Of a stretch of 64,000 nucleotides of DNA, positions 1 through 59,345 are shown one piece after another (the first letter of the stretch is position 1; each line of letters begins with the position of its first letter). The position numbers and the translations under genes are program-made. Source of the DNA: Streptosporangiaceae bacterium (lineage in GTDB: Bacteria; Actinomycetota; Actinomycetes; Streptosporangiales; Streptosporangiaceae); the NCBI GenBank assembly GCA_036495485.1, contig DASXMU010000193.1, forward strand, positions 2,618-66,617, written 5' to 3'. The notes below the pieces were generated by a model. The model did not search any database. It was not told the DNA's origin and saw only the letters and a list, made by a program, of their open reading frames with translations.

Positions 1-1661
1 GCCTTGGTGGCTGGATCGGCGAGGAGGGCCAGCCAGGGGACGTGCTGGTCGGTCTCGGTGAGCGGCAGGCCCGCGCGCCGGGCGGCTGCCTGGATGACGG
101 GCTTGACCTTGGCGATCCTGGCTCGCAACGGGGCCAGCGGGTCGGGCTGGGTGAGGAGCTCCAGGGCCACGCTGAGGGAGAGGGCCGAGGCGGCCAGCGG
201 GGGCAGGACCGCGCGGACGGCGGCGGCCAGGTCTGGGGAAGCCACCGCGAAGCCGATGCGGAGGCCGCCGCAGCAGTAGCCCTTGGAGATGCCGCGCAGC
301 ACGATCAGGCCGGGGGAGGTGTCGGTGAGGGGCGCGGCGCTGGCGCCGGGCGGGAGGTAGCAGGCACAGCTCTCGTCCACGACCAGGACGCCGCCGGCCT
401 GGGCAGTGGTTCTGGCCAGCTCGGCGATCATGGGCAGGGTCCAGTGGCGGCCGGTCAGGGCCGGCCGGTCGAGGACGGTGACCAGCGGGCGGAACGTGGC
501 TACGGCTGTGGCCGCAGCCGCCGGGTCGCTGAGCGGGGCGACGGCTACCTGGCTGCTGACCGCCGCCGCTGCTTCGGCTAGCTGGGGGTGGCCGGACGGG
601 TCGGTGAGGATCGTGCCGCCGTCGGCCAGCCTGGCCAGGCTGTGCAGGAGGCCGGTCACGCCTGCGCCGGCGGTGACCCGGTACGGGCTGAGCGACCAGG
701 CCAGGTTGGCGGCCAGGACCGGGGCGGAGCGGATGCCGCCGTAGGGGTCGGCCAGGTCGTAGCGGCGGGCCAGGGTGGGCAAGCCGAGTGGGTCCGAGGA
801 CAGGCGCGCCCACGCGGCGGTGACCGCTGGCTGGCTGAAGTACGCCTCGTCCGGAGCGGAGCGCAGGTCGATGGCTCCAGGCGGCGCCTGGGCGCGGTGA
901 CCCTCCAGGGCCGAGGTGATGCGCCGGGCTGGGGTGGCGACGAACTGGACGTACCTGGTGGCGATCGTCACGGGAGCACCGGCCTGGAAGTCGGCGTCCG
1001 TACGGGTGACGTCGAAGCCGGCCCGGGTCAGCAGGGCGCCGACCTCGGCCGGGGTGTAGAGGCGGACGTTGTCGGGGAGGACCGCCTCACTCCCGTCGGG
1101 GCGGGTCACCTGGACCTGGCCGCCGCTGCGGCCGGTCAGCGGGTCGTACTCGCGGCTGAACGTGAAGCTTGCGCCGCCGATCTGGGCCTGGGCGCTGGGC
1201 TGGTACATCCGGGTGATCGCCAGGATGCTCGAATGGTCGAGCACGAAGAGGCCGTCACCGGGCAGCAGGCGCCGGACGGTGCGCAGCATCCGGAGCTGGT
1301 CGGTGTCGGAGCCCCAGCCGAAGGCCTGCACGCAGATCGCGGCGTCGGCCGACGGGACGCCCCAGGCAGAAGAGCCGAGCAGATCGGCCTGGTGCAGCTC
1401 CAGCCGCACACCTGCGCCGGCTGCTGCTTGCGCGGCGCGGCGCAGTGCGTAGGCCGAGGCGTCCACGCCGGTTACCCGGAAGCCGCGCCGGGCCAGGGCG
1501 ACCGCGTGCCGGCCGGTGCCGCAGCCCAGGTCGAGGACACGACTGGCCCCGGCGAGCAGGCCGGCCAGGTAGGCGACCTCGGCTTCGGTTCGCTCCGGGG
1601 TGTACTCAGCGTCGGCGTACGCCCAGTAGTCGGCGGTGAAGTAGCTGTCGTACCACGCCAT
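1..1661 (-). CDS. Fusion protein: N-terminal class I SAM-dependent methyltransferase + C-terminal PLP-dependent aminotransferase (class I/II fold); 3' end lies beyond the left edge
   Basis: Absent from the ORF track because it runs off the window. My translation from ATG at 1661 reads MAWYDSYFTADYW...VLDLGCGTGRHAVALARRGFRVTGVD (SAM motif I), then later VVDESCACY...LRGISKGYCCGGLRIGFAV (PLP-lysine SK..GLR.G-type motif). No stop codon down to nt 1. The start lies 4 nt after the stop of the upstream gene (1666). Confidence 0.7.
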   Translation of the reverse strand, partial: MAWYDSYFTADYWAYADAEYTPERTEAEVAYLAGLLAGASRVLDLGCGTGRHAVALARRGFRVTGVDASAYALRRAAQAAAGAGVRLELHQADLLGSSAWGVPSADAAICVQAFGWGSDTDQLRMLRTVRRLLPGDGLFVLDHSSILAITRMYQPSAQAQIGGASFTFSREYDPLTGRSGGQVQVTRPDGSEAVLPDNVRLYTPAEVGALLTRAGFDVTRTDADFQAGAPVTIATRYVQFVATPARRITSALEGHRAQAPPGAIDLRSAPDEAYFSQPAVTAAWARLSSDPLGLPTLARRYDLADPYGGIRSAPVLAANLAWSLSPYRVTAGAGVTGLLHSLARLADGGTILTDPSGHPQLAEAAAAVSSQVAVAPLSDPAAAATAVATFRPLVTVLDRPALTGRHWTLPMIAELARTTAQAGGVLVVDESCACYLPPGASAAPLTDTSPGLIVLRGISKGYCCGGLRIGFAVASPDLAAAVRAVLPPLAASALSLSVALELLTQPDPLAPLRARIAKVKPVIQAAARRAGLPLTETDQHVPWLALLADPATK

Positions 1662-1665
1662 CCGG

Positions 1666-2886
1666 TCAGCTCACTGTGCTCAGCTCACGCCGGGCGAAGA
1701 AATCGCAGACATCGCACAGGTCAGGCGCGTTGGAGACGCCCTCCTGCAGCAGGTACAGGCCGCCGCAGCCACGGCAGGTCGCCTCCAGCAACGGGAACAT
1801 GTAGCGCTGCATGTTCGCGAACGAGGCGAACAGGTAGTAGTCGATACCAGGCCACAGGTCGAAGAGGTGATCGGTCATGGCGTAGGACATGGAGCGCTCG
1901 TCCGGGCCGGAGGTGAACCGGCCGGGCGTGCCCTGGCGGTTCAGCTCGGGTGCGACCAGCTCCAGGTAGAGCGTCAGCTCCTTTTTCGTGATCCGGTACA
2001 GCGGGAACACGTAACGCAGGCCGCCGATCTCCCGCACCGGGATGCCACCCATCCGGAAGCCGCTGGTGAACCAGGTCACCATGCTGGCCACCAGGTCGTC
2101 GGCGTTGAAGCCGAACGCGACCACGCCGGCACCGTGCGACTTGGCCTCCTCCTCCAGCATCCGGCGCAGCACCTGGTGGCCGATCACCATCGTCAGGTGG
2201 TTGCCCTCGCCGGCCACGACCTCGTTCATCGCGTCCACGAACTGGCCCTTGAGCTTGAAGACCCGCTCCACGTCGGCCGAGGTGACGATGACCTGGTGCA
2301 CGCCGAGCCGCTCGCCCGACTCGCGGGCCGCGGCGAACGTCGCCGGTTCCTCCCAGTCGGGCAGGCCGGTGATCGTCACCGCCGTCATGTCGACGGCGGG
2401 CAGCCGGTCCCTGGTCCGCTCCAGCAGGGTCAGGTACGCGACGCTGTCCCTGCCCCCGGACAGGCCGACGACGACCTTGTCGCCCGCCCGCATGACCTCG
2501 TGCGAGAGCATGCTCTGCACGAACGTCTCCTCGACGTACTTCACGAAGCCCACCGAGTCGAACTGCTCGGTCCGCCGCTCCAGCGAGCCCATGGTGTCGA
2601 ACAGCACGCTCTTGCAGTACACCGGGTCGGGTGCGCCGTACACCTGGCGCTTGGGCTTGCGCAGCACGTCCAGGTCGTAGTGCCGGACCTGGCGCACCTC
2701 GATCACGTCACCGGGCTCGACCACCGTGGTCTCCTCCGCGACGATCTTGCCGTTGCGCCAGGTCAGAACGGCGTTAACCGGGATGCCGTTGCGCAGCAGC
2801 ACGTCGGTCAGCGGCTGCCCGGCAGGCGCGGCGAGCTCCTCGGTGGTGCCAAGCTTGTTACGGAAGAACACAGAGGCCACGGTCAT
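1666..2886 (-). CDS. ThiS/MoaD-like beta-grasp domain fused to a PP-loop (adenine nucleotide alpha-hydrolase, TilS/TtuA-like) ATPase with a C-terminal CxxC...CxxC pair
   Basis: Track ORF 1666..3765 is a run-on. Plausible starts are ATG 2886 (MTVASVFFRNKLG) or GTG 2880. The N-terminal ~70 aa resembles ThiS (NGIPVNAVLTWRNGKIV..VEPGDVIEV). PP-loop VVVGLSGGRDS is present. The tail carries CRGC-x16-CDVC. Confidence 0.75.
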   Translation of the reverse strand: MTVASVFFRNKLGTTEELAAPAGQPLTDVLLRNGIPVNAVLTWRNGKIVAEETTVVEPGDVIEVRQVRHYDLDVLRKPKRQVYGAPDPVYCKSVLFDTMGSLERRTEQFDSVGFVKYVEETFVQSMLSHEVMRAGDKVVVGLSGGRDSVAYLTLLERTRDRLPAVDMTAVTITGLPDWEEPATFAAARESGERLGVHQVIVTSADVERVFKLKGQFVDAMNEVVAGEGNHLTMVIGHQVLRRMLEEEAKSHGAGVVAFGFNADDLVASMVTWFTSGFRMGGIPVREIGGLRYVFPLYRITKKELTLYLELVAPELNRQGTPGRFTSGPDERSMSYAMTDHLFDLWPGIDYYLFASFANMQRYMFPLLEATCRGCGGLYLLQEGVSNAPDLCDVCDFFARRELSTVS

Positions 2887-2935
2887 TCTCCTGTTCGGGC
2901 GGGACGCTGATAAGGCTGCTTGTGCACCGGCGGCG

Positions 2936-3859
2936 TCACGGCGGTCCGGCGGGGCCGGTGCCGCGGGGCCAGAATCGCCGTGAGGTGGCGAGGACCAGGC
3001 TCTCCCAGGCGTCGATGCCGGTGCCGAACGGAGCGAGCGCCGCCGCGGCCCGCTCCGGACTGGGCCCGGGTGACAGCGGGGTGAAGTCGGCCCTGAGCAG
3101 GTCCGCCAGCGGGTGGGCGCCCGGGAGCAGGGCAGCCAGCCGCTCGCCGCCGCCTGGCGCGCCGAACTCGGCCGGGCCCACCGCCAGCATGGCGCTCGCC
3201 GTCTTGCGCACCGGCCGCGGCAGGTCGTCCCAGGCTGCGGCGAGCGACCTGGCCCGCAGCCCGGCGAGCACGTCGTGGTAGCCGCGGTCCTCCCGGGGCG
3301 CGCCGAGCTGGAGCATGGCCAGCTGGGTGCGCAGCTCGTCCGGGTCGCCGCTGGCGAAGCCGCCGGGGCCGGCGAAAACAGCGCTCTCGGCGGCGGAGTC
3401 GGCCGCGGAGTCCGCGCTGTGCAGCAGCGAGAGCATGACGTTGATCGAGCCGAGGTCGCCGCGGATCGTGCCGGGGCCGGATCTGGCCGGATCGCTCGGG
3501 CCCTTGGCCTGCTTGAGCCGCTGGTGACCGGTCTGCCCGGCGCCCGCGCGCTGGTCGGCCAGCAGCAGCGCGACAGCCGGGCCGAAGGCGAACAACTGGT
3601 CGACCAGCCGGTAGCGGTAGGCCTGCCAGCTATGGGCGATGCTGACCTCGTGGAAGGCGTCGAGGCCGGCCGGACGGTGCCACAGCACCCGCCAGGCCAG
3701 CGGGGCGAACCCGGCGGTCTCGATCCGCTCGAGGACCGCCGGGCCGAGATGCCTGGCCACGGCATCGGGACCGATCAGCGCGAAGACGGTCCGGTCCCAG
3801 TCGGTATCCGCCACGGTCGGTCCCTTCGGGGTCATTGCCAGGCATGCCGTGCCCACCAC
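2936..3859 (-). CDS. Nucleoside-diphosphate-kinase-like domain protein with ~150-aa C-terminal extension
   Basis: TVFALIGPDAVARHLGPAVLERIETAGF ... GTIRGDLGSINVMLSLLHSADSAADSAAESAVF parallels the NDK core (..IKPD.., GTIRGDF, HGSDS..SA.RE...F), including the catalytic-His position. Start is uncertain (GTG 3859 or ATG 3835). Confidence 0.6.
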   Translation of the reverse strand: MVGTACLAMTPKGPTVADTDWDRTVFALIGPDAVARHLGPAVLERIETAGFAPLAWRVLWHRPAGLDAFHEVSIAHSWQAYRYRLVDQLFAFGPAVALLLADQRAGAGQTGHQRLKQAKGPSDPARSGPGTIRGDLGSINVMLSLLHSADSAADSAAESAVFAGPGGFASGDPDELRTQLAMLQLGAPREDRGYHDVLAGLRARSLAAAWDDLPRPVRKTASAMLAVGPAEFGAPGGGERLAALLPGAHPLADLLRADFTPLSPGPSPERAAAALAPFGTGIDAWESLVLATSRRFWPRGTGPAGPP

Positions 3860-4031
3860 GCCAGGGCCGGGAGCACGATGCGAGGCCTGGACACCAGGCC
3901 GGGCACGGCATGCAAGCTGGGGTGTTCCTACTTGCTCTTGTCGCCGGTGCCACGTGTGTTCTTGGCGATCGGGCGGCGCGCGCTCTGGCGGTGACGGTCC
4001 ACATTCCCTCCTTCCCGTCTGCGGGAGCGTT

Positions 4032-4066
4032 CGCCGGGTCAGCAGCAGCGAGCCGCTGACCCGGCG
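4032..4066 (-). other. Perfect 12-bp inverted repeat (stem-loop) just downstream of the nucleotidyltransferase stop, inside the operon
   Basis: cgccgggtcagc (4032-4043) / gctgacccggcg (4055-4066), with an 11-nt loop. No U-tract follows on the minus strand. Confidence 0.4.
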
Positions 4067-4087
4067 GTTACCTGCGGAAGCCGCACG

Positions 4088-5317
4088 TCATGATCCGTGC
4101 CCAGCTACCTGTTCCGCTTGATCTTCGGCTTGCGCACGCTGACTATGTGACGGTCCACCGGTACCTCCTTCCGGTGTCGAGAGCTCCTCCACCGCTTCCT
4201 CCGAGACCTCGTCACCAATGGTCAGCAGGAAGCGTCCCGCGGGAGTGTCCGCCCAGGCGAGCTTGCCGCGACGGCGCAGCACTGCCGTGCTCACCTCCGG
4301 CCGTGGGCCCTCCAGCGGCAGCCCGAAGGCGAGCAGCCCGGCCGGGACGGCCGTAGCCACCTGCAGCCTGCGCTGCACCGCGTCCCAGACCATCCCCTCG
4401 GCCCGGCTGGGGTTGCCCATCATGAGGCGCCGCTGCAGATGGCGCCCTGTGCCAGCCAGCGGCCTGGTGAAGAACCCGGCGCCGCGGGCCAGCCGGTGCG
4501 CCCGCACCCGTGCCATGGTCCACTGGCCGCCGGGCAGCTCCCGGAGGGAGCCGATGCCGGCCTTGGTGGTCAGCCGGACGAGTTCGGCGTACTCCACGGC
4601 CAGACCCAGCGTGACGACGGCCTCATGCAGCGCGTCGGGCTCTGTGCCGCGCAGAGCATCGTTCAGCAGCGCCGCGTCGAGCAGATCCCTGGCACGGAAC
4701 GGCTGCTCGTAGCGCTCGTGCAGCAGCATGAGCATGTTCTTAACCGCCGGGACACGCCATTGTTCCGGCAGCCGGAGTACCGGCGGGATGCCACCTTGAT
4801 TACCGAGCGTGTAATAGGTGGCCAGCTCAATGCCGTACGGGAGCTGATAGCGGTCCTCGTGTGAACGCCTGAGGCTGACCAGAACCTGCAGTGCGCCGCC
4901 CCAGCAGGAAAACGTCCCCGTGTCCAGTTCCCAGCCGTCCCCGGTCAGGAAACCGACGGCCCGCCACAGGGCAGTTTCCGACGAGGCGATGAAGTCGAGG
5001 TCGTTCATGTACCTGACGAGACCGGGTGGATAGAGCGCGGCCACCTCGAGGCCCTTGATCGTGGTCAGCCCGTCCACGGCCGCCATCAGGCCCGCCGCGA
5101 CCGCGCGGTAGTACTCGACGCGCGCCCGTGCGGCCGCTATCTCGTCGCGTAGCGCCGGGCTGAGCTCATCACCCCCGGCCCGCCAGGCCGAGAAGAGCGT
5201 GGCCGCGAAGGACGGCTGAGCCTTGCGCACCAGCGCCACGATCTCGGCGGGCCCATCGGCCGGCTCGCCCGAGCACGTGAGCAGCGCTTCAACCAGGCTG
5301 TCCGCGGTGAGATCCAT
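4088..5317 (-). CDS. Uncharacterised nucleotidyltransferase family protein (PF14907/NTP_transf_5-like)
   Basis: 409-aa ORF. KGLEVAALYPPGLVRYMNDLDFIASSETALWRAVGFLTGDGWE resembles the NTase motif (R...D[IL]D[LF][LI]) of the family often found in lasso/other RiPP loci. ATG at 5317. Confidence 0.65.
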   Translation of the reverse strand: MDLTADSLVEALLTCSGEPADGPAEIVALVRKAQPSFAATLFSAWRAGGDELSPALRDEIAAARARVEYYRAVAAGLMAAVDGLTTIKGLEVAALYPPGLVRYMNDLDFIASSETALWRAVGFLTGDGWELDTGTFSCWGGALQVLVSLRRSHEDRYQLPYGIELATYYTLGNQGGIPPVLRLPEQWRVPAVKNMLMLLHERYEQPFRARDLLDAALLNDALRGTEPDALHEAVVTLGLAVEYAELVRLTTKAGIGSLRELPGGQWTMARVRAHRLARGAGFFTRPLAGTGRHLQRRLMMGNPSRAEGMVWDAVQRRLQVATAVPAGLLAFGLPLEGPRPEVSTAVLRRRGKLAWADTPAGRFLLTIGDEVSEEAVEELSTPEGGTGGPSHSQRAQAEDQAEQVAGHGS

Positions 5318-5340
5318 GGCGCCCCCCAGCGGATGCGGCG

Positions 5341-5394
5341 GCAGATAATCAAAGCGACGCCGAGGCGAGCCGGCCGGCCCCCACGGCGTCGCTT
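5341..5394 (-). terminator. Intrinsic-terminator/attenuator-like hairpin directly after the 48-aa ORF
   Basis: 11-bp stem aagcgacgccg (5352-5362) / cggcgtcgctt (5384-5394) with a GC-rich 21-nt loop. On the minus strand it is followed by TTTGATTATCT. Confidence 0.45.
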
Positions 5395-5400
5395 CGCCGC

Positions 5401-5547
5401 CTAGTAGTTAGGTACGCAGTCCGTGCAGGTCGTACGGAACTTCATGACCTGGACAGCCTCGCGCTGAGCGAGCATCTTCTCGACCAGGGTGGGGGTGAGC
5501 AGGACCGGGGCAACAGTGGTGTCGGTCCGAGCGATCGTCTCTTCCAT
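5401..5547 (-). CDS. Unannotated 48-aa peptide, candidate RiPP precursor: MEETIARTDTTVAPVLLTPTLVEKMLAQREAVQVMKFRTTCTDCVPNY
   Basis: ATG 5547 to TAG 5401, translated by hand. A GGGAAGGG purine tract lies ~10 nt upstream. 39/48 codons end in G/C. Promoter-like hexamers lie upstream and a hairpin downstream. It is co-directional with the four enzyme genes. Confidence 0.55.
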   Translation of the reverse strand: MEETIARTDTTVAPVLLTPTLVEKMLAQREAVQVMKFRTTCTDCVPNY

Positions 5548-5583
5548 AAGCCAAACCCTTCCCGTGGAACGCAAGTTGCCGTC

Positions 5584-5612
5584 AGCGTAAGGAGAAGTTT
5601 GGATAGGGTCAA
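5584..5612 (-). promoter_or_regulatory. Sigma70/HrdB-like promoter candidate for the peptide operon
   Basis: The minus strand reads TTGACC (5612-5607), a 17-nt spacer, then TACGCT (5589-5584). The -10 hexamer ends ~36 nt upstream of the ATG, in a locally AT-richer intergenic region. Confidence 0.45.
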
Positions 5613-5820: not shown

Positions 5821-5919
5821 GATCATGCTACGGATGAGCGGGATGGGACGGATCCAGCTCGCGCGAGTGCATTTTACCTGATCACACTACGGGTGAGCGG
5901 GACCGGACGGATCTAGCTC
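5821..5919. repeat. Imperfect 40-bp direct repeat duplicating the 3' end (last codons + stop) of the gene ending at 5887
   Basis: gatcatgctacggatgagcgggatgggacggatccagctc (5821-5860) versus gatcacactacgggtgagcgggaccggacggatctagctc (5880-5919): 34/40 identical. Confidence 0.85.
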
Positions 5920-7143
5920 CCAGCGGGTGCCGTCCACGTCATCGAGCAGCCGCAGGCCGGACGCGGCGAGCGCGTCGCGGATGGCGTCCGCCGCCTGGTA
6001 GCTGCCGTCACCGCGCAGCGTCCCGCGCAGGGTGATCAGGCGCTCGATGGCGGGACCGAGGCGCTCGCGGGGGTCGGCCAGGCCGCCGGTGGCAGCACGG
6101 CCGAGCCGGGTGACCAGGCTGCGCAGCACGGCCCTGGCCTGCTCGGTGCCCTGGTCCTCCTCGGTGTCGGCGGCCCACTCGTGGATGGCGGCCTCCAGGT
6201 CGAGGATCGCCGCCGTCATGCCCGCGGCGTCCCGGCAGCGCTCGGCGTCGTCGAAGCGGCGCTGCGCGGCGGCGGTGAGGTCGGGCAGCGCGTCCGGCGG
6301 CGGCTGGGCCTCTGGCGGCGCGGCGGCCGGGCTGGGGGGTGCAGCTACCGCCGGGGTGCCGCTGTTCACCAGGTCCTGGAGCTGGCCGAGGGCGATTTCC
6401 GTGCCCGCGGGCAGGACTGTGCTGACGCCCTGGCGGCGGACCGTGACGCCGCCGCGACCGGATATCCCGACGGTCCCGGCGGCCAGGTCGAAGACGGCCA
6501 CCGTGTGCTCGTCCACACCGAGCACGGCGGCCCCGGCGGGCAGCTCGGCCTCCAGCCTGGCCAGCCGCCGCTCGCCCAGATAGCAGAAGCGGGTGTCGTG
6601 GTTGCCGCCCTCGGCGTTGTCGTAGTGCGGGATGACCGTGACGTTGAGCCCGATGGCGGACATCAGGTCGAGGCCGTCCAGCCAGTGCGGCGGCTCGCCG
6701 ACCTTGTAGATCTCATAGACGGGCAGCGCGGTGACGCCGAGCGTGACGGCGGCCGCCGACGCGAACACGGTCACGCCCTGGCCCGCCAGGACCCGGTCGC
6801 GCAGCGCCCCGGCGACCGGGCCGCCGGTCCACTGCGCCAGGGCATAGGTCGGGCTGCCAGGTCCGGAGAACACCCAGTCGGCACCTAGCAGCGTCCCGGC
6901 GCTGTCGCCGGTACCGGGGAGGACGGTGACCTCCAGCCCGACGCTGCGGGCGAAGTACGCCTTGGCCCGGGCGGAGATGTCGTCGGCGTTCTCCTGGAAC
7001 CGGTACGGGGTCTCCAGCAGGACCGCGTCGGGCTGCTTGGTCCCCAGCCGGGCGGCGAGCGCGCGATGCGCGGTGACCATGGTCGGGCTGGTCTCCCCCG
7101 ACCCCATGATGGCCAGAATCCGGCATCCGGCTGACCCGCCCAT
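5887..7143 (-). CDS. Cyanophycinase/peptidase S51-like (class I glutamine amidotransferase-like fold) protein with a tail resembling the cysteinyl-tRNA synthetase C-terminus
   Basis: CRILAIMGSGETSPTM... at the N-terminus. The C-terminus ADAIRDALAASGLRLLDDVDGTRWE resembles the CysRS C-terminal motif as I recall it. ATG 7143 is preferred (GGGGGGAG 4 nt upstream) over the track start at 7161. Confidence 0.5.
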   Translation of the reverse strand: MGGSAGCRILAIMGSGETSPTMVTAHRALAARLGTKQPDAVLLETPYRFQENADDISARAKAYFARSVGLEVTVLPGTGDSAGTLLGADWVFSGPGSPTYALAQWTGGPVAGALRDRVLAGQGVTVFASAAAVTLGVTALPVYEIYKVGEPPHWLDGLDLMSAIGLNVTVIPHYDNAEGGNHDTRFCYLGERRLARLEAELPAGAAVLGVDEHTVAVFDLAAGTVGISGRGGVTVRRQGVSTVLPAGTEIALGQLQDLVNSGTPAVAAPPSPAAAPPEAQPPPDALPDLTAAAQRRFDDAERCRDAAGMTAAILDLEAAIHEWAADTEEDQGTEQARAVLRSLVTRLGRAATGGLADPRERLGPAIERLITLRGTLRGDGSYQAADAIRDALAASGLRLLDDVDGTRWELDPSGPAHP

Positions 7144-7165
7144 TCGGCTCCCCCCCTGCACGGCG

Positions 7166-8086
7166 CTAGCTGACTGGTGGCGGCGATCCCTCCGCGCTGG
7201 CGGCCAGGGCTGGGTCCCAGCGGCAGGCGGCGCAGGTCTGGCGGAAGGCCGAGCGGGCGAACTCCAGGGCGGCGGCGTGCGGGTCCGGGGCCGCCCGGAC
7301 GTCGTCCCAGTCCAGGATGAACTCGCCGAGCACCGGGTTCCAGTGCGCGCCCGGCGGGGACAGGGTCAGGCTGGCGAAGCCCTCCGGCGCCGGGTGGGTG
7401 TAGGCGTAGAACGCCGACTTGCTGTACCGCTGGTCACCGGGCCACCAGCCGACCGCGACCTCCTGGGCGTCCATGGCGTTGCGCATGATGAAGTCCTGCG
7501 ACGGCGGGTCGGCCGGCTCGCCGGAGAACAGGCTCACGGCGAAGTCGAACGAACCCCACCAGGCGTTGACCGGGGTGGACCGGCCCCGGTAGGGGGCGCG
7601 GTACTCGGCCAGCACCAGCGCCGCCTGGGTGGCGGCGGTGAAATAGACGGCCACCTCGGCCGGGTCGTAGTGGGCGTGCACGTCGTCGGCGTCCAGCGGG
7701 ACGCTCCACGGCACCTCCTGCGGCGCCGGGTCGATCTCCACCGGGCCACCGAGCTCCCGGACCGCCGCCAGCACGTCCCTGGTGACCGCGCCGGCCGCGC
7801 GGTGCGGCGTGAGCGGGATGCGCCTGGCCGGCTTGCTGGTGTGCTCGATCACCGCCTCGTGAGCGTGCAGGTCGAGCGCCACGACCAGCGCGCCCGAGCG
7901 ATCGGGCGCGGGCAGCGGGTGGGTCTCCCAGCCGCGCGCGGTCAGCCGCAGCGCCGCATGCTGGAGCTGCGGCTCCGGCGGGGCGAGCCTGGCCGCCAGC
8001 TTGCCAAGCACCTGGGTGTGCGAATGCAGCGTGTCGCAGGTCTCGCGCCACAGCTCATAGGACAGTTCCGGCCAGCCCGAGGACAT
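7166..8086 (-). CDS. DUF5996-family protein
   Basis: 306-aa ORF with coding-like composition (WPELSYELWRETCDTLH..., NAWWGSFDFAVSLFSG, WWPGD). Family assignment is from memory. Confidence 0.6.
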   Translation of the reverse strand: MSSGWPELSYELWRETCDTLHSHTQVLGKLAARLAPPEPQLQHAALRLTARGWETHPLPAPDRSGALVVALDLHAHEAVIEHTSKPARRIPLTPHRAAGAVTRDVLAAVRELGGPVEIDPAPQEVPWSVPLDADDVHAHYDPAEVAVYFTAATQAALVLAEYRAPYRGRSTPVNAWWGSFDFAVSLFSGEPADPPSQDFIMRNAMDAQEVAVGWWPGDQRYSKSAFYAYTHPAPEGFASLTLSPPGAHWNPVLGEFILDWDDVRAAPDPHAAALEFARSAFRQTCAACRWDPALAASAEGSPPPVS

Positions 8087-50453: not shown

Positions 50454-51743
50454 GTGGCTGACATCGTTCTGGATCAGGTCACAAAGCGGTTCCCCGACGG
50501 GGCGCTGGCGGTCGACAAGATGGACCTGACCATCGCCGATGGAGAGTTTGTCATCCTGGTCGGGCCGTCCGGCTGCGGGAAGTCGACCACGCTCAACATG
50601 ATCGCGGGCCTGGAGGACATCAGCGCGGGCGAGCTGCGGATCGGCGGCAAGGTCGTCAACGACAAGGCGCCGAAGGACCGTGACATCGCCATGGTCTTCC
50701 AGAGCTACGCCCTGTACCCGCACATGACCGTGCGGGAGAACATGGGCTTCGCGCTGAAGCTGGCCAAGACGCCCAAGAGCGTCATCGACGAGAAGGTCAA
50801 CGAGGCGGCCCAGATCCTGGATCTGACCCAGCACCTGGACCGCAAGCCGGCCAACCTGTCCGGTGGCCAGCGGCAGCGGGTGGCGATGGGCCGGGCGATC
50901 GTCCGCGACCCGGCCGCGTTCCTGATGGACGAGCCGCTGTCCAACCTGGACGCCAAGCTGCGCGTGCAGATGCGCACCGAGGTGTCCAGGATCCAGCGCA
51001 GGCTGGGCACCACCATGGTCTACGTGACCCACGACCAGACCGAGGCGATGACCCTCGGCGACCGGGTCGCGGTCATGCGGACCGGCCTGCTGCAGCAGGT
51101 GGCGTCCCCGCAGGAGCTCTACGACCGGCCGGTCAACCTGTTCGTGGCCGGCTTCATCGGCTCGCCGGCGATGAACTTCATGGCCGGCACGATCGAGTCC
51201 GATGGCCTGCGCACCTCGATCGGGCTCATCCCGGTGTCCGGCGAGGTCCGCCAGGCGCTGGAGCGGTCCAACGTGGGCCGCGAGATCATCGTGGGCATCC
51301 GGCCGGAGAACTTCGAGGACGTCGCGCTGGTGTCCGCCGACATCCTGCCGAACGGGATCACCTTCCAGGCCACCGTCGACGTCGTCGAGTCCCTGGGCGC
51401 GGAGAAGTACGTCTACTTCAGCCGCGAGCTCGGCCAGGCGGTGAACGTGGCCGAACTGGAGGAGCTGGCCAGGGACTCCGGCCGGGCCGACACCGGCTCG
51501 ACCACCGAGACCGTGGTCGCCAGGATCGATCCCGCCACCCGGATCACCGAGGGAGAGACCGCCCAGATGTGGGCCGACGTGCGCGCGGTGCACGTGTTCG
51601 ACCCGGGCACCGGCCTGAACCTCACCCTGGGCGGTGGCGCCCCCGGTGCCCCGGCCGCCCCGGCCGGCGGCGGCGCGGCCGAGCCGGCCGCCCCGGCGTC
51701 CGAGCAGACCACCGGGGCGGAGGCCGACGCCGACTCGATCTGA
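50454..51743 (+). CDS. Sugar ABC transporter ATP-binding protein (MalK/SugC/MsiK-like) with Ala/Pro/Gly-rich tail
   Basis: Walker A GPSGCGKST, signature LSGGQRQR, Walker B FLMDEPLSNLD. Confidence 0.92.
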   Translation: MADIVLDQVTKRFPDGALAVDKMDLTIADGEFVILVGPSGCGKSTTLNMIAGLEDISAGELRIGGKVVNDKAPKDRDIAMVFQSYALYPHMTVRENMGFALKLAKTPKSVIDEKVNEAAQILDLTQHLDRKPANLSGGQRQRVAMGRAIVRDPAAFLMDEPLSNLDAKLRVQMRTEVSRIQRRLGTTMVYVTHDQTEAMTLGDRVAVMRTGLLQQVASPQELYDRPVNLFVAGFIGSPAMNFMAGTIESDGLRTSIGLIPVSGEVRQALERSNVGREIIVGIRPENFEDVALVSADILPNGITFQATVDVVESLGAEKYVYFSRELGQAVNVAELEELARDSGRADTGSTTETVVARIDPATRITEGETAQMWADVRAVHVFDPGTGLNLTLGGGAPGAPAAPAGGGAAEPAAPASEQTTGAEADADSI

Positions 51744-59204: not shown

Positions 59205-59345
59205 GCGTGCCTCCTCCCATCCGGGCTTTAACCGTCGGTCCCGGAGTTTCACCGGGTCAGCCGGTCGCTGTGCCTGGGCACTGCGGCCGGGTCGCGGACT
59301 GTAACCGCCGGCTCGGAGTTTCACCGACCCCGGAGTACGCGCTGC
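59205..59345 (-). promoter_or_regulatory. FMN riboswitch (RFN element) leader of the rib operon
   Basis: The minus strand reads CTCCGGGGTCGGTGAAACTCCGAGCCGGCGGTTACAGTCCGCGACCCGG...GGCTGACCCGGTGAAACTCCGGGACCGACGGTTAAAGCCCGGATGGGAGGAGG. This matches the conserved RFN core as I recall it and sits directly upstream of ribE. Confidence 0.9.

What the first reader, a model, noticed from the sequence alone, without database searches (positions are those of the whole stretch)
1..5612. Operon led by an unannotated 48-aa peptide gene plus four unusual enzymes: candidate new RiPP-like / peptide-nucleotide modification system
**Seen in the sequence.** On the minus strand there is a promoter-like TTGACC-17 nt-TACGCT, then a 48-codon ORF (5547-5401), then a hairpin with a U-rich tail. 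Co-directional genes follow: a PF14907-like nucleotidyltransferase (5317-4088), an NDK-like protein (3859-2936), a ThiS-like::PP-loop ATPase fusion (2886-1666), and, only 4 nt later, a methyltransferase::PLP-aminotransferase fusion that leaves the window.

**Established knowledge.**
- A short precursor gene, an attenuating hairpin and downstream tailoring enzymes is the canonical RiPP locus layout.
- PF14907-type NTases recur in lasso and other RiPP loci.
- PP-loop ATPases adenylate carbonyl/carboxyl groups (TilS, TtuA, the lasso cyclase, the CtaC thioamide synthase of closthioamide).

**Inference.** None of the hallmark enzymes of the RiPP classes I know is visible (LanB/C/M, YcaO, radical SAM, lasso B/C, P450, DUF692). 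The enzyme combination (NTase + NDK-like + beta-grasp::PP-loop + MT::aminotransferase) is not one I can assign to a described pathway. The chemistry could be peptide nucleotidylation, adenylation-dependent (thio)amidation or ligation, methylation, or transamination. An alternative reading is a modified-nucleotide small-molecule pathway whose upstream peptide is a leader or a coincidence.
Basis: partly seen in the sequence, partly recalled or inferred. Interest (0 to 1): 0.85.

Follow-up and report, generated by a model that had tools for sequence, protein, structure and literature searches.

The report
New peptide–PP-loop enzyme gene cluster
A real, strongly conserved 48-residue peptide gene sits with an unusual ATP-using enzyme, derived from a tRNA-thiolating enzyme, in what appears to be an undescribed family of ribosomal-peptide natural-product clusters found in many actinomycetes and, in simpler forms, in other bacteria and an archaeon.

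Summary
All five minus-strand ORFs, the 4-nt junction and the hairpin lie at the stated coordinates.

**The small ORF is a real gene.**
- It recurs in 57 of 62 related loci. Four of the five exceptions are cut contigs.
- Its position and strand vary between loci.
- Its invariant 12-residue block varies almost only at third codon positions.

**The partner enzyme** is a SAMP2/ThiS-like beta-grasp domain fused to an NcsA/TtuA-type PP-loop domain. All three [4Fe-4S] cysteine ligands are lost, so thiolation of that kind is unlikely.

**The window holds only the upstream half of a larger cluster.** In relatives it continues with M28 and M16 peptidases, FemAB-like GNATs, an AlkP-type phosphodiesterase and MFS or ABC exporters.

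**Distant relatives keep the pair.** Geobacillus plasmid pGS18, Cutibacterium avidum, an archaeon and several metagenome contigs have the peptide next to the PP-loop gene. In C. avidum the only added gene is an MFS pump.

**One residue is universal:** an Asp exactly sixth from the C-terminus, usually with Cys or Ser two or three residues before it.

**Accessory genes** (seryl-tRNA synthetase, HIT hydrolase, RimL-type GNAT, Clp-like ATPases) echo microcin C clusters.

No library model, source name or open-access paper describes the system. The chemistry is inferred, not shown.

The parts
5584..5612 (-). Promoter-like TTGACC-17 nt-TACGCT upstream of the peptide gene
   Evidence: Read directly. 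It matches 8 of 12 consensus positions and is not called by the promoter scan. It fits the actinomycete -10 pattern TANNNT only from general knowledge. Status: weak.
5401..5547 (-). Precursor-like peptide gene, 48 aa: MEETIARTDTTVAPVLLTPTLVEKMLAQREAVQVMKFRTTCTDCVPNY. A GGGAAGGG Shine-Dalgarno-like stretch lies at 5563-5556.
   Evidence: - ORF seen.
- Homologues found in 57 of 62 related loci, at varying position and strand.
- In the invariant KFRTTCTDCVPN block, entropy by codon position is 1.14 / 0.59 / 8.98 over 56 distinct DNA sequences.
- 85 protein clusters, all called 'hypothetical protein' or unnamed.
5337..5401 (-). Stable hairpin between the peptide gene and the first enzyme gene (attenuator or partial terminator)
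   Evidence: - Fold of -53.1 kcal/mol, z = -2.63.
- Hairpins of unrelated sequence follow the peptide stop codon in most clades.
- Not called as a canonical intrinsic terminator.
4088..5317 (-). Pol-beta-superfamily nucleotidyltransferase-like protein (409 aa, PF14907-like, NDLD motif)
   Evidence: - PF14907 at 17.9 bits, below the cut-off. Homologues carry precomputed PF14907 hits.
- AF2 model with pLDDT 88.
- Only weak Foldseek hits to nucleotidyltransferases: 4ok0 at E 7e-3, MenT, Cid1, Pol lambda.
- Present in 56 of the related loci.
2936..3859 (-). NDK-like protein (307 aa): NDK domain at residues 26-162 plus a C-terminal extension of about 145 aa
   Evidence: - PF00334 at 45 bits.
- The alignment to NDK keeps PGTIRGDL and the His of N-x-x-H-[GS]-x-D-S. 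The Lys of the IKPD motif is Gly here.
- Far below the NCBIfam equivalog cut-offs.
- Present in 48 loci. Replaced by a dTMP-kinase-like protein in clade B.
1666..2886 (-). Class-defining enzyme (406 aa): N-terminal SAMP2/ThiS-like beta-grasp, NcsA/TtuA-type PP-loop ATP pyrophosphatase domain, and a C-terminal CxxC...CxxC ribbon. No Fe-S ligands.
   Evidence: - Sequence, profile and structure support.
- The NcsA ligands Cys142, Cys145 and Cys233 (PMC10067955) align to V234, H237 and G322.
- None of 52 diverse family members has Cys at those columns.
1..1661 (-). Class I SAM methyltransferase fused to a fold-type-I PLP enzyme (CobD/HisC-like). Truncated by the window edge; about 635 aa in close relatives.
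   Evidence: - Pfam methyltransferase families plus PF00155.
- Best NCBIfam hit is CobD threonine-phosphate decarboxylase, 79.6 bits. The daptide methyltransferase model scores 54 bits against a cut-off of 175.
- PDB matches are N-methyltransferases and HisC.
- Present in 54 loci.

Best explanation
**What it is.** The window holds the upstream half of a biosynthetic gene cluster for an undescribed family of ribosomally made, post-translationally modified peptides.

**The substrate.** The 48-aa product of 5547-5401 is the precursor. It has three parts:
- a variable N-terminus;
- a conserved helical recognition segment (LLTPxLVEKMLxxRQ);
- an invariant C-terminal core, KFRTTCTDCVPN, plus one variable hydrophobic residue.

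**The defining enzyme.** The beta-grasp::PP-loop protein (2886-1666) defines the family. It descends from an NcsA/TtuA-type tRNA 2-thiolase fused to its ubiquitin-like sulfur carrier. It has lost the [4Fe-4S] site.

**Inferred first step.**
- The enzyme binds the peptide's C-terminal tail.
- It uses ATP to adenylate the one universally conserved residue, the Asp sixth from the C-terminus. Asparagine synthetase and lasso cyclases do this to Asp side chains.
- The acyl-adenylate is then captured by a nearby nucleophile. The most likely candidate is the Cys (Ser in one lineage) two or three residues upstream. This would give a small (thio)lactone, or an activated acyl group that is passed on.

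**Inferred later steps in the window-type cluster.**
- Phosphoryl or nucleotidyl chemistry by the NTase, the NDK-like protein and an AlkP-type phosphodiesterase.
- Decoration by the methyltransferase::PLP fusion.
- Amino-acid addition by FemAB-like GNATs.
- Trimming by M16 and M28 peptidases.
- Export by an MFS or ABC pump.

**Shown versus inferred.**
- Shown: a real translated gene; tight peptide-enzyme coupling across phyla; the enzyme's fold and its lost Fe-S site; the cluster composition.
- Inferred: the substrate relationship (about 0.85), Asp adenylation (about 0.45), capture by Cys/Ser (about 0.3), and the roles of all tailoring enzymes.
For: **Peptide gene.**
- Conserved in 57 of 62 loci, at changing positions and strands.
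- Substitutions in the invariant block fall almost only at third codon positions.
- A hairpin follows the stop codon in most clades.

**Enzyme.**
- SGGRDS motif and NcsA/TtuA fold.
- The Fe-S ligands Cys142, Cys145 and Cys233 are replaced by V, H and G, and never by Cys, in 52 diverse members.
- The C-terminal four-Cys ribbon is invariant.

**Cluster content in relatives**: M16 and M28 peptidases, FemAB-like GNATs, ATP-grasp ligase, AlkP-type phosphodiesterase, dTMP-kinase-like protein, MFS/ABC exporters, and SARP/LuxR-type regulators assigned by my reading of the sequences.

**The pair survives in distant lineages.**
- Geobacillus plasmid pGS18
- C. avidum, where the set is peptide + enzyme + MFS only
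- An archaeal contig
- Metagenome loci L067, L070, L071, L072, L073

**Core motif.**
- Across 16 distinct core types the only invariant residue is Asp at position -6.
- Cys sits at D-3 and/or D-2 in 15 of them. Ser takes those positions in L073.

**Precedent (established knowledge).** The PP-loop superfamily includes asparagine synthetase and lasso cyclases, which adenylate Asp side chains. AsnS appears among the structural neighbours, and one family member has a weak Asn_synthase Pfam hit.
Against: - No product, mass shift or assay exists; every chemical step is inferred.
- The closest structural relatives adenylate a nucleobase carbonyl, not a carboxylate.
- A Cys-Asp thioester would be labile. 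It does not by itself explain the fixed five-residue tail.
- The Legionella MAG locus (L059) has no recognisable peptide in the DNA held. It carries the PP-loop enzyme plus MT::PLP, M28, GNAT, AlkP and MFS. L069 also lacks one.
- A more distant Xenorhabdus homologue has an adjacent small ORF without Asp at -6.
- Nucleotide-handling and microcin-C-like immunity-type genes suggest a nucleotide may be retained (see the first rival).
- No recognised RiPP recognition element (PqqD-like) was detected in any cluster protein.
Confidence: 0.45

Rival explanations
1. Microcin-C-like Trojan horse. The PP-loop enzyme, alone or with the NTase, leaves a nucleotide covalently on the peptide. After uptake and proteolysis, the released aminoacyl-nucleotide mimic inhibits an aminoacyl-tRNA synthetase, plausibly SerRS. 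The accessory genes decorate the nucleotide or protect the producer.
For: **Minimal set.** Peptide + ATP-using enzyme + MFS pump in C. avidum mirrors the minimal mccABC cluster (PMC8323819).

**Accessory genes echo known microcin C immunity or decoration genes** (PMC8323819; HIT hydrolases in PMC7157772).
- HIT hydrolase next to the pair in the archaeal locus
- RimL-type GNAT in L072 and L073
- ClpA/ClpX-like ATPases in pGS18, L072, Xenorhabdus and Legionella
- Methyltransferases
- An MT::PLP fusion whose PLP half best matches CobD O-phospho-amino-acid decarboxylase. This recalls the MccD/MccE1 aminopropylation of a phosphate.

**SerRS.** Full-length SerRS genes lie inside 4 of 11 distant loci. 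Under a crude model the chance probability is about 1e-8 to 1e-7. In albomycin the SerRS paralogue AbmK is encoded in the albomycin BGC and seryl-tRNA synthetases supply the seryl-adenylate used for the amide bond.

**Nucleotide enzymes** recur: NTase, NDK-like, dTMP-kinase-like, AlkP/NPP and a PNP_UDP phosphorylase.
Against: - The peptide does not end in Asn, and there is no ThiF/E1-type MccB.
- The universal Asp is internal, with a five-residue tail.
- An Asp acyl-adenylate is hydrolytically labile, and no nitrogen is available for a phosphoramidate.
- PP-loop enzymes normally release AMP.
- SerRS could be a biosynthetic donor rather than an immunity gene.
- None of these accessory genes lies in the window itself.
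Confidence: 0.2
2. Backbone-carbonyl activation. By analogy with uracil C2=O adenylation by TtuA/NcsA and with the closthioamide thioamide synthase CtaC, the enzyme adenylates a peptide-bond carbonyl near the Cys. Attack by the Cys thiol would give a thiazoline; attack by external sulfide would give a thioamide. This would do without a YcaO enzyme.
For: - The nearest relatives activate an amide-like carbonyl.
- Cys is nearly universal next to the conserved site.
- No YcaO is present in any locus.
- The CtaC precedent is recalled from general knowledge and was not tested here.
Against: - It does not explain the single universal residue (Asp) or the fixed tail length.
- Cys is replaced by Ser in L073, and its register shifts between D-2 and D-3.
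- The sulfide-binding Fe-S site is lost, which weakens the thioamide option.
Confidence: 0.1
3. The peptide is not the end product. It is a carrier or scaffold for a small-molecule nucleoside or amino-acid pathway: a persulfide or acyl carrier in the manner of TtuB/SAMP2, LysW or PEARL scaffolds. The enzymes then build a low-molecular-weight metabolite.
For: - The whole peptide, leader included, is highly conserved, which is unusual for antibiotic RiPPs.
- The enzyme descends from a system that works with a small carrier protein.
- The Legionella locus keeps the enzyme set without a detectable peptide.
- Many nucleotide-metabolising enzymes and two aminoacyl-transferase types (FemAB-like, ATP-grasp) are present.
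Against: - Minimal loci hold only peptide, enzyme and exporter, leaving nothing to build a small molecule from.
- The hairpin after the peptide gene suggests high peptide stoichiometry, as for substrates.
- M16 and M28 peptidases and exporters fit a processed peptide product.
Confidence: 0.12
4. The small ORF is a chance ORF or a translated leader that only regulates the downstream operon by attenuation.
For: The ORF is short and is followed by a hairpin. It matches no family model.
Against: - The amino-acid sequence is conserved, with almost all variation in the invariant block at third codon positions.
- It is found 5-7 kb away and on the opposite strand in several genera, where it cannot attenuate the operon.
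- It is retained next to homologous enzymes in Bacillota and Archaea.
Confidence: 0.01

Closest known systems
NcsA / TtuA tRNA 2-thiolases with their ubiquitin-like sulfur carriers (SAMP2, TtuB)
   Same: - Best sequence and structure match for residues of about 110-400 (6scy at E 1.8e-15; Foldseek E about 1e-14, TM about 0.65-0.70 on the target).
- PP-loop SGGxDS motif and C-terminal Cys4 ribbon.
- A SAMP2/ThiS-like beta-grasp accompanies the enzyme; here it is fused to the N-terminus.
   Different: - All three [4Fe-4S] ligands are lost.
- The N-terminal zinc site is absent.
- The beta-grasp C-terminus is not free, so it cannot carry a thiocarboxylate.
- The genomic partner is a small peptide and exporters, not tRNA-modification genes.
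Microcin C-type peptidyl-nucleotide clusters (MccA/MccB/MccC plus MccD, MccE, MccF, MccH)
   Same: - Short ribosomal peptide + one ATP-consuming enzyme + MFS pump as the minimal unit.
- The same kinds of accessory genes recur across the family: HIT, RimL-type GNAT, Clp-like ATPase, methyltransferase, PLP enzyme.
   Different: - The enzyme is a PP-loop ATPase, not a ThiF/E1-like protein.
- The peptide is 47-79 aa and does not end in Asn.
- The conserved residue is an internal Asp.
Lasso-peptide cyclase / asparagine synthetase B (PP-loop enzymes that adenylate Asp or Glu side chains)
   Same: - Same superfamily (AsnS among the hits).
- A conserved Asp in the core. It lies at position 8 of the conserved 13-residue block, the size of a lasso ring.
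- PF14907-type NTases are also known from lasso loci (PMC6993621, listed).
   Different: - No Asn_synthase-level match for the window enzyme.
- No transglutaminase-like B protease and no PqqD-like RRE.
- A tail of only five residues.
- Minimal loci have no protease to free an N-terminus.
Daptides (C-terminal aminotransferase plus N-methyltransferase tailoring)
   Same: A methyltransferase and a PLP aminotransferase-fold enzyme act in one RiPP-like cluster. The methyltransferase domain weakly matches the daptide model (54 bits).
   Different: - The score is far below the cut-off of 175.
- No C-terminal Thr and no oxidative decarboxylase.
- The PLP half resembles CobD/HisC.
- The fusion is missing from clade B and from the minimal loci.
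Albomycin and other tRNA-synthetase inhibitors whose clusters carry an aaRS paralogue
   Same: A full-length SerRS gene is embedded in four related loci, as AbmK is in the albomycin cluster.
   Different: - No siderophore or thionucleoside genes are present.
- No SerRS gene lies in the window. The neighbouring 424-aa ORF has only a faint CysRS C-terminal similarity.

Membership tests
RiPP biosynthetic gene cluster (general) | A short precursor gene conserved together with the modifying enzyme | tested here: met
   57 of 62 actinobacterial loci. Eight of twelve distant contexts carry a related small ORF beside the enzyme.
RiPP biosynthetic gene cluster (general) | Precursor translated, and divided into a recognition (leader) part and a modified core | tested here: inconclusive
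   Purifying selection at the protein level is clear. There is a variable N-terminus, a conserved helix and an invariant C-terminal block. No cleavage site or modified residue is known.
RiPP biosynthetic gene cluster (general) | Protease(s) and exporter in the cluster | tested here: met
   M16 and M28 peptidases and MFS or ABC transporters are present in relatives. They lie beyond the window's left edge.
RiPP biosynthetic gene cluster (general) | A post-translationally modified peptide product | not testable with these tools
   Needs expression and mass spectrometry.
NcsA/TtuA/TtcA [4Fe-4S]-dependent tRNA thiolases | PP-loop SGGxDS and the overall fold | tested here: met
NcsA/TtuA/TtcA [4Fe-4S]-dependent tRNA thiolases | Three conserved Cys ligands of the catalytic [4Fe-4S] cluster | tested here: not met
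   NcsA Cys142, Cys145 and Cys233 (PMC10067955) align to V234, H237 and G322. There is no Cys at these columns in 52 diverse members.
NcsA/TtuA/TtcA [4Fe-4S]-dependent tRNA thiolases | A separate ubiquitin-like sulfur carrier with a free Gly-Gly C-terminus | tested here: not met
   The beta-grasp is fused to the N-terminus and continues into the enzyme.
TilS lysidine synthase | Match to the TilS N-domain model at its trusted score, and TilS C-terminal tRNA-binding domains | tested here: not met
   TIGR02432 scores 25 bits against a cut-off of 93.6. TilS structures rank below TtuA/NcsA.
Microcin C-like peptidyl-nucleotide systems | ThiF/E1-like MccB adenylyltransferase | tested here: not met
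   No ThiF family hit in any window protein or in the conserved cluster families.
Microcin C-like peptidyl-nucleotide systems | Precursor ending in Asn | tested here: not met
   The last residue is Y, F, L, M, W, K or H. Asn is penultimate in actinomycetes only.
Microcin C-like peptidyl-nucleotide systems | Nucleotide attached to the mature peptide | not testable with these tools
   Needs MS and 31P NMR.
Lasso peptides | Asn-synthetase-like C cyclase, transglutaminase-like B protease and a PqqD-like RRE | tested here: not met
   None was detected in window proteins or in the cluster families. There is only one weak Asn_synthase hit, on a distant member.
Daptides | Daptide methyltransferase model at its trusted score, a C-terminal Thr and an oxidative decarboxylase | tested here: not met
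   NF041820 scores 54 bits against a cut-off of 175. The peptide ends in Y/F/L/M/W. No such decarboxylase is in the census.
Nucleoside diphosphate kinase | NDK fold with the catalytic His | tested here: met
   PF00334 at 45 bits. The His of the LLHSADS stretch aligns with the NDK active-site His.
Nucleoside diphosphate kinase | Equivalog-level similarity and the full active-site set | tested here: not met
   46 bits against cut-offs of 155 or more. The Lys of IKPD is Gly here, and there is a C-terminal extension of about 145 aa.

The most novel reading that the evidence does not exclude
The beta-grasp::PP-loop enzyme and its Asp(-6) peptide form an ancient, mobile, cross-domain system found in Actinomycetota, Bacillota, Gammaproteobacteria and Archaea. 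On this reading it makes peptide-borne aminoacyl-nucleotide-like warheads against seryl-tRNA synthetase or another aaRS. That would be a second, independent invention of the microcin C strategy, built from a tRNA thiolase fused to its ubiquitin-like partner instead of an E1-like enzyme.
Probability: 0.2. Interest if true: 0.9.

Novelty: new variant of a known kind. Interest (0 to 1): 0.8.

Why it matters
**A new RiPP class.** If the peptide is the substrate, this defines a RiPP class whose founding enzyme type, an Fe-S-less NcsA/TtuA-like PP-loop ATPase with a fused ubiquitin-like domain, has no described role in peptide modification.

**Breadth.**
- The family is large: 921 representative clusters at E below 1e-3 and 82 below 1e-30.
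- It is present in many cultivable actinomycetes: Streptomyces, Nonomuraea, Streptosporangium, Streptacidiphilus.
- It also occurs on conjugative plasmids of Geobacillus and Xenorhabdus and in the skin commensal Cutibacterium avidum.
- Minimal two- or three-gene versions make it directly testable.

**Possible bioactivity.** The recurrent SerRS, HIT, GNAT and Clp-like genes hint at activity against aminoacyl-tRNA synthetases, which are validated antibiotic targets.

**Evolution.** It would be a clear case of a tRNA-modification enzyme and its sulfur-carrier partner being fused and re-used for secondary metabolism.

Tried and rejected
**Extending the contig leftwards.**
- The exact PP-loop protein is on record only on a 2,982-nt JGI contig.
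- The NTase is 100% identical to NCBI protein VGI74_11395 on an 83,950-nt Streptosporangiaceae MAG contig, but that contig could not be fetched.
- Loci L003 and L004 (PP-loop protein 93% identical) served as proxies instead.

**Other searches that gave nothing.**
- Literature: no paper holds any of the core sequences. The decRiPPter supplements do not either. No paper links PP-loop, TtuA or TilS enzymes, or SerRS, to a RiPP precursor.
- Canonical promoter and terminator scans called nothing.
- The only Rfam gathering-level match in the window is an FMN riboswitch far from this region, and there are no tRNAs.
- No peptide was found in the Legionella MAG locus by regex or by a profile HMM.

**Ideas rejected.**
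- TtuA-type thiolation or thioamidation, because the Fe-S ligands are absent.
- Daptide, lasso and microcin C membership, because defining features are not met.
- The upstream 424-aa ORF as an S51 (MccG-like) peptidase: no support.
- The C-x-x-C pair as the key motif: the second Cys is absent outside actinomycetes.

Full report
**1. The observation**

The minus strand of window 1-5612 carries the ORFs exactly as described:
- a 48-codon ORF (5547-5401; MEETIARTDTTVAPVLLTPTLVEKMLAQREAVQVMKFRTTCTDCVPNY);
- a 409-aa ORF (5317-4088);
- a 307-aa ORF (3859-2936);
- a 406-aa ORF (2886-1666);
- 4 nt later, an ORF from 1661 that leaves the window.

| Protein | Result |
|---|---|
| NDK-like | PF00334, 45 bits, above cut-off |
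| Last ORF | Methyltransferase families plus PF00155, above cut-off |
| NTase-like | PF14907, 17.9 bits, below the 31.2 cut-off |
| PP-loop | PF01171, 26.4 bits, just below the cut-off of 27 |

TTGACC-17-TACGCT is present at 5612-5584 but matches only 8 of 12 consensus positions, and the promoter scan does not call it. The hairpin after the stop codon is strong (-53 kcal/mol, z = -2.6). Its tail is not a canonical U-run.

**2. The small ORF is a real gene tied to the PP-loop enzyme**

The PP-loop protein has 221 relatives in the 5.8-billion-protein set. None carries an informative name: JGI's automatic 'TilS/ThiS' label, 'hypothetical protein', or no name.

A scan of one genome per species returned 62 loci, all but one from Actinomycetota. 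They include Streptosporangiaceae, Pseudonocardiaceae, Streptomyces, Streptacidiphilus, Nonomuraea, Sphaerisporangium, Streptosporangium and Jatrophihabitans.

- tblastn finds the peptide in 57 of them.
- Four of the five exceptions are contigs that end before the place where relatives carry it.
- The fifth is a Legionella MAG.
- The gene is not always upstream. In Nonomuraea, Sphaerisporangium and Streptosporangium it lies 5-7 kb downstream of the enzyme, in some on the opposite strand. This excludes a purely cis-regulatory leader.
- In 56 distinct DNA versions, the invariant KFRTTCTDCVPN block has summed entropy of 1.14, 0.59 and 8.98 bits at codon positions 1, 2 and 3. Ten of twelve third positions vary. 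This is the signature of a translated sequence under strong purifying selection.
- Hairpins of unrelated sequence follow the stop codon in most clades.
- Eighty-five peptide clusters exist in public data, all 'hypothetical protein' or unnamed.

**3. The window holds only half of the cluster**

I ran my own gene calling and clustering on the 62 loci, followed by Pfam and NCBIfam searches. The result is a conserved set:

| Component | Loci |
|---|---|
| PF14907-like NTase | 56 |
| MT::PLP fusion | 54 |
| One or two FemAB-like GNATs (PF13480) | 51 |
| AlkP-type phosphodiesterase (PF01663) | 49 |
| NDK-like protein | 48 |
| M28/DUF4910 peptidase | 44 |
| MFS exporter | 31 |
| M16 peptidase | 29 |
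| ABC exporter | about 19 |

Some clusters also carry SARP- or LuxR-type regulators; I assigned these by reading the sequences.

- A second clade has the core KFRTNCSDCVPNL. There the MT::PLP fusion and the NDK-like protein are replaced by an ATP-grasp ligase and a dTMP-kinase-like protein.
- Several genomes carry both clades.
- None of the missing families is elsewhere in the window. The cluster therefore continues beyond the left edge, as in the closest loci L003 and L004 (PP-loop protein 93% identical).
- The source contig is an 83,950-nt Streptosporangiaceae MAG contig. It could not be retrieved.
- The genes upstream of the peptide (a 424-aa ORF and a DUF5996 protein) are not conserved next to the cluster. 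The peptide gene therefore marks one border.

**4. What the central enzyme is**

- A family profile matches NcsA (PDB 6scy) at E 1.8e-15. It matches TtuA, TilS and, for residues 14-65, ThiS/SAMP2-type beta-grasp proteins at E 0.003-0.016.
- An AF2 model (pLDDT 85.5) matches NcsA and TtuA structures by Foldseek at E about 1e-14. TilS, GMP and NAD synthetases, LarE and asparagine synthetase follow further down.
- NcsA binds its catalytic [4Fe-4S] cluster through Cys142, Cys145 and Cys233 (PMC10067955). In the alignment these fall on V234, H237 and G322 of the window protein.
- In 52 members spanning 21-42% identity to the Geobacillus homologue that heads the alignment, none has Cys at these columns. 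SGGxDS and the C-terminal CxxC...CxxC ribbon are invariant.
- The enzyme is therefore a tRNA-thiolase-derived PP-loop ATPase fused to the kind of ubiquitin-like protein that normally brings the sulfur. It lacks the sulfide-binding cluster and a free carrier C-terminus. Thiolation or thioamidation of the TtuA type is unlikely.

**5. The pair reaches far beyond actinomycetes**

An exhaustive profile search found 921 representative clusters at E below 1e-3 and 82 below 1e-30, many of the same ~400-aa architecture. Eleven distant contexts were fetched by exact-protein look-up and a twelfth, on a Xenorhabdus plasmid, by a plasmid search; pGS18 turned up in both:

| Locus | Content |
|---|---|
| Geobacillus stearothermophilus plasmid pGS18 | NTase-domain protein, 590-aa methyltransferase protein, 47-aa ORF, PP-loop enzyme, PNP_UDP phosphorylase, MFS, ClpA-like ATPase |
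| Cutibacterium avidum | 52-aa ORF, enzyme and MFS only, between IS elements |
| Archaeal contig (L068) | 58-aa ORF (divergent strand), enzyme, MFS, HIT hydrolase, methyltransferase |
| L067 | 57-aa ORF, enzyme, SerRS |
| L070-L072 | Small ORF and enzyme with radical-SAM/SPASM enzymes, an aldo-keto reductase and SerRS; TauD in L070 and L071 |
| L073 | Enzyme, RimL-type GNAT, MFS, 79-aa ORF |
| Xenorhabdus plasmid (23% identity) | Small ORF, enzyme, MFS and a ClpX-like ATPase; the peptide motif differs |

The C-termini align without gaps:

```
KFRTTCTDCVPNY
KFRTNCSDCVPNL
RFRTCATDPITSW
RFRTCCADVRASK
RFRTCCCDPRASK
RFSVCCSDSTASL
RMYNCSTDPAACH
PLLVCASDIMFHL
IVRSSVDDMLHL
```

- The only universal residue is Asp exactly sixth from the end.
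- Cys occupies D-3 and/or D-2 in all but one type. That one has Ser.
- D-1 is small.
- The last residue varies.

**6. How it most likely works**

- *Shown:* peptide and enzyme form an evolutionarily stable unit that can stand alone with an exporter. The enzyme has an intact ATP pyrophosphatase motif and no Fe-S site.
- *Established knowledge:* PP-loop enzymes adenylate a carbonyl or carboxyl oxygen, and a nucleophile then displaces AMP. Within the superfamily, asparagine synthetase and lasso cyclases do this on Asp side chains.
- *Inference:* the enzyme holds the C-terminal five-residue tail as a ruler and adenylates Asp(-6). The neighbouring Cys/Ser, or another nucleophile, captures the acyl group. 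The enzymes in the window-type cluster then add phosphoryl or nucleotidyl, methyl or amino, and aminoacyl decorations. M16 and M28 peptidases trim the peptide, and a pump exports it.

My rough confidences are:
- peptide is the substrate: about 0.85;
- Asp adenylation: about 0.45;
- capture by Cys/Ser: about 0.3.

**7. The main rival**

The accessory genes scattered over the family match the known kit of microcin C-like clusters (PMC8323819; PMC7157772):
- MFS pump;
- HIT hydrolase;
- RimL-type GNAT;
- ClpA/ClpX-like ATPases;
- methyltransferases;
- an MT::PLP fusion whose PLP half best matches the O-phospho-threonine decarboxylase CobD.

A full-length SerRS lies inside 4 of 11 distant loci. 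A crude model puts the chance of this at 1e-7 or less. It recalls AbmK in the albomycin cluster. A nucleotide-bearing, synthetase-targeting Trojan horse made by a PP-loop enzyme therefore remains a serious possibility (about 0.2).

Against it, the defining microcin C features are not met: there is no ThiF-like MccB and no C-terminal Asn. An Asp acyl-adenylate would also be unstable.

Other rivals are in the structured fields: backbone-carbonyl activation, the peptide as carrier or scaffold, and a chance ORF.

**8. Comparison and novelty**

- The system works like a RiPP cluster and meets the testable genomic criteria.
- It fails the membership tests for lasso peptides, microcin C-type systems, daptides and Fe-S tRNA thiolases.
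- No Pfam (2025), NCBIfam (June 2026) or source annotation names the peptide or the enzyme.
- Full-text searches found no description. Subscription-only literature was not searchable.
- I rate it a new variant of a known kind: a new RiPP-type family with a new class-defining enzyme.
- Interest is high because the family is large, occurs in cultivable strains and on plasmids, and has minimal versions that make the chemistry directly testable.

**9. Unexplained**

- The fixed five-residue tail.
- The role of the fused beta-grasp domain.
- The targets of the NTase, the NDK-like protein and the AlkP-type enzyme.
- Whether SerRS serves as immunity gene or as donor.
- The two loci (Legionella MAG L059 and L069) where no peptide was found.

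Noticed in passing
window 59209-59337 (-): FMN riboswitch (RF00050), 80 bits against a gathering score of 66.2. It is the only Rfam match in the window.
   Followed up: no
window 5887-7161 (-): A 424-aa ORF directly upstream of the peptide gene with no Pfam family. Its C-terminal ~50-80 residues faintly resemble the CysRS anticodon-binding domain (NCBIfam cysS E 3e-4; Pfam CysS_C E 0.07). It is not conserved beside the cluster in other loci. This is curious because SerRS and CysRS genes flank distant relatives.
   Followed up: partly
window 7166-8086 (-): DUF5996 family protein (283 bits). It lies outside the conserved cluster.
   Followed up: no
L004+L053, L009+L056, L010+L057 (same MAGs); L006+L058 (same contig): Single genomes carry two paralogous peptide/PP-loop systems. 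Clade A has the core KFRTTCTDC[VL]PN-x and MT::PLP. Clade B has the core KFRTNCSDCVPNL with an ATP-grasp ligase and a dTMP-kinase-like protein.
   Followed up: partly
L070 5467-8533; L071 3801-7975; L072 1629-9917: A distinct subfamily with the core RFRTCC[AC]D[PV]RASK, found in organisms of 37-71% GC. It always comes with radical-SAM/SPASM enzymes, an aldo-keto reductase and a full-length SerRS; a TauD-type oxygenase is present in L070 and L071 only.
   Followed up: partly
L059 9217-20134 (Legionella MAG): The PP-loop enzyme, MT::PLP, a glycosyltransferase, an LmbE-like protein, M28/DUF4910, a FemAB-like GNAT, MFS and an AlkP-type enzyme occur together. ClpX-like fragments lie upstream. No peptide, NTase or NDK-like gene is present in the 21 kb held.
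   Followed up: partly
L075 6684-10232 (Xenorhabdus nematophila AN6/1 plasmid II); L074 (Geobacillus plasmid pGS18): Family members sit on conjugative plasmids between IS elements. In Xenorhabdus the set is a 56-aa ORF (…GDICGGSTRVVSG, no Asp at -6), the enzyme, an MFS pump and a ClpX-like AAA ATPase.
   Followed up: partly
L005 (Streptosporangiaceae MAG): This locus has a second PP-loop gene and three NTase paralogues around one peptide gene.
   Followed up: no
window 50481-51119 (+): An ABC-transporter ATPase-like segment, 32% identical to the cluster-associated ABC ATPase of Streptomyces loci. It is far from this cluster and probably unrelated.
   Followed up: no
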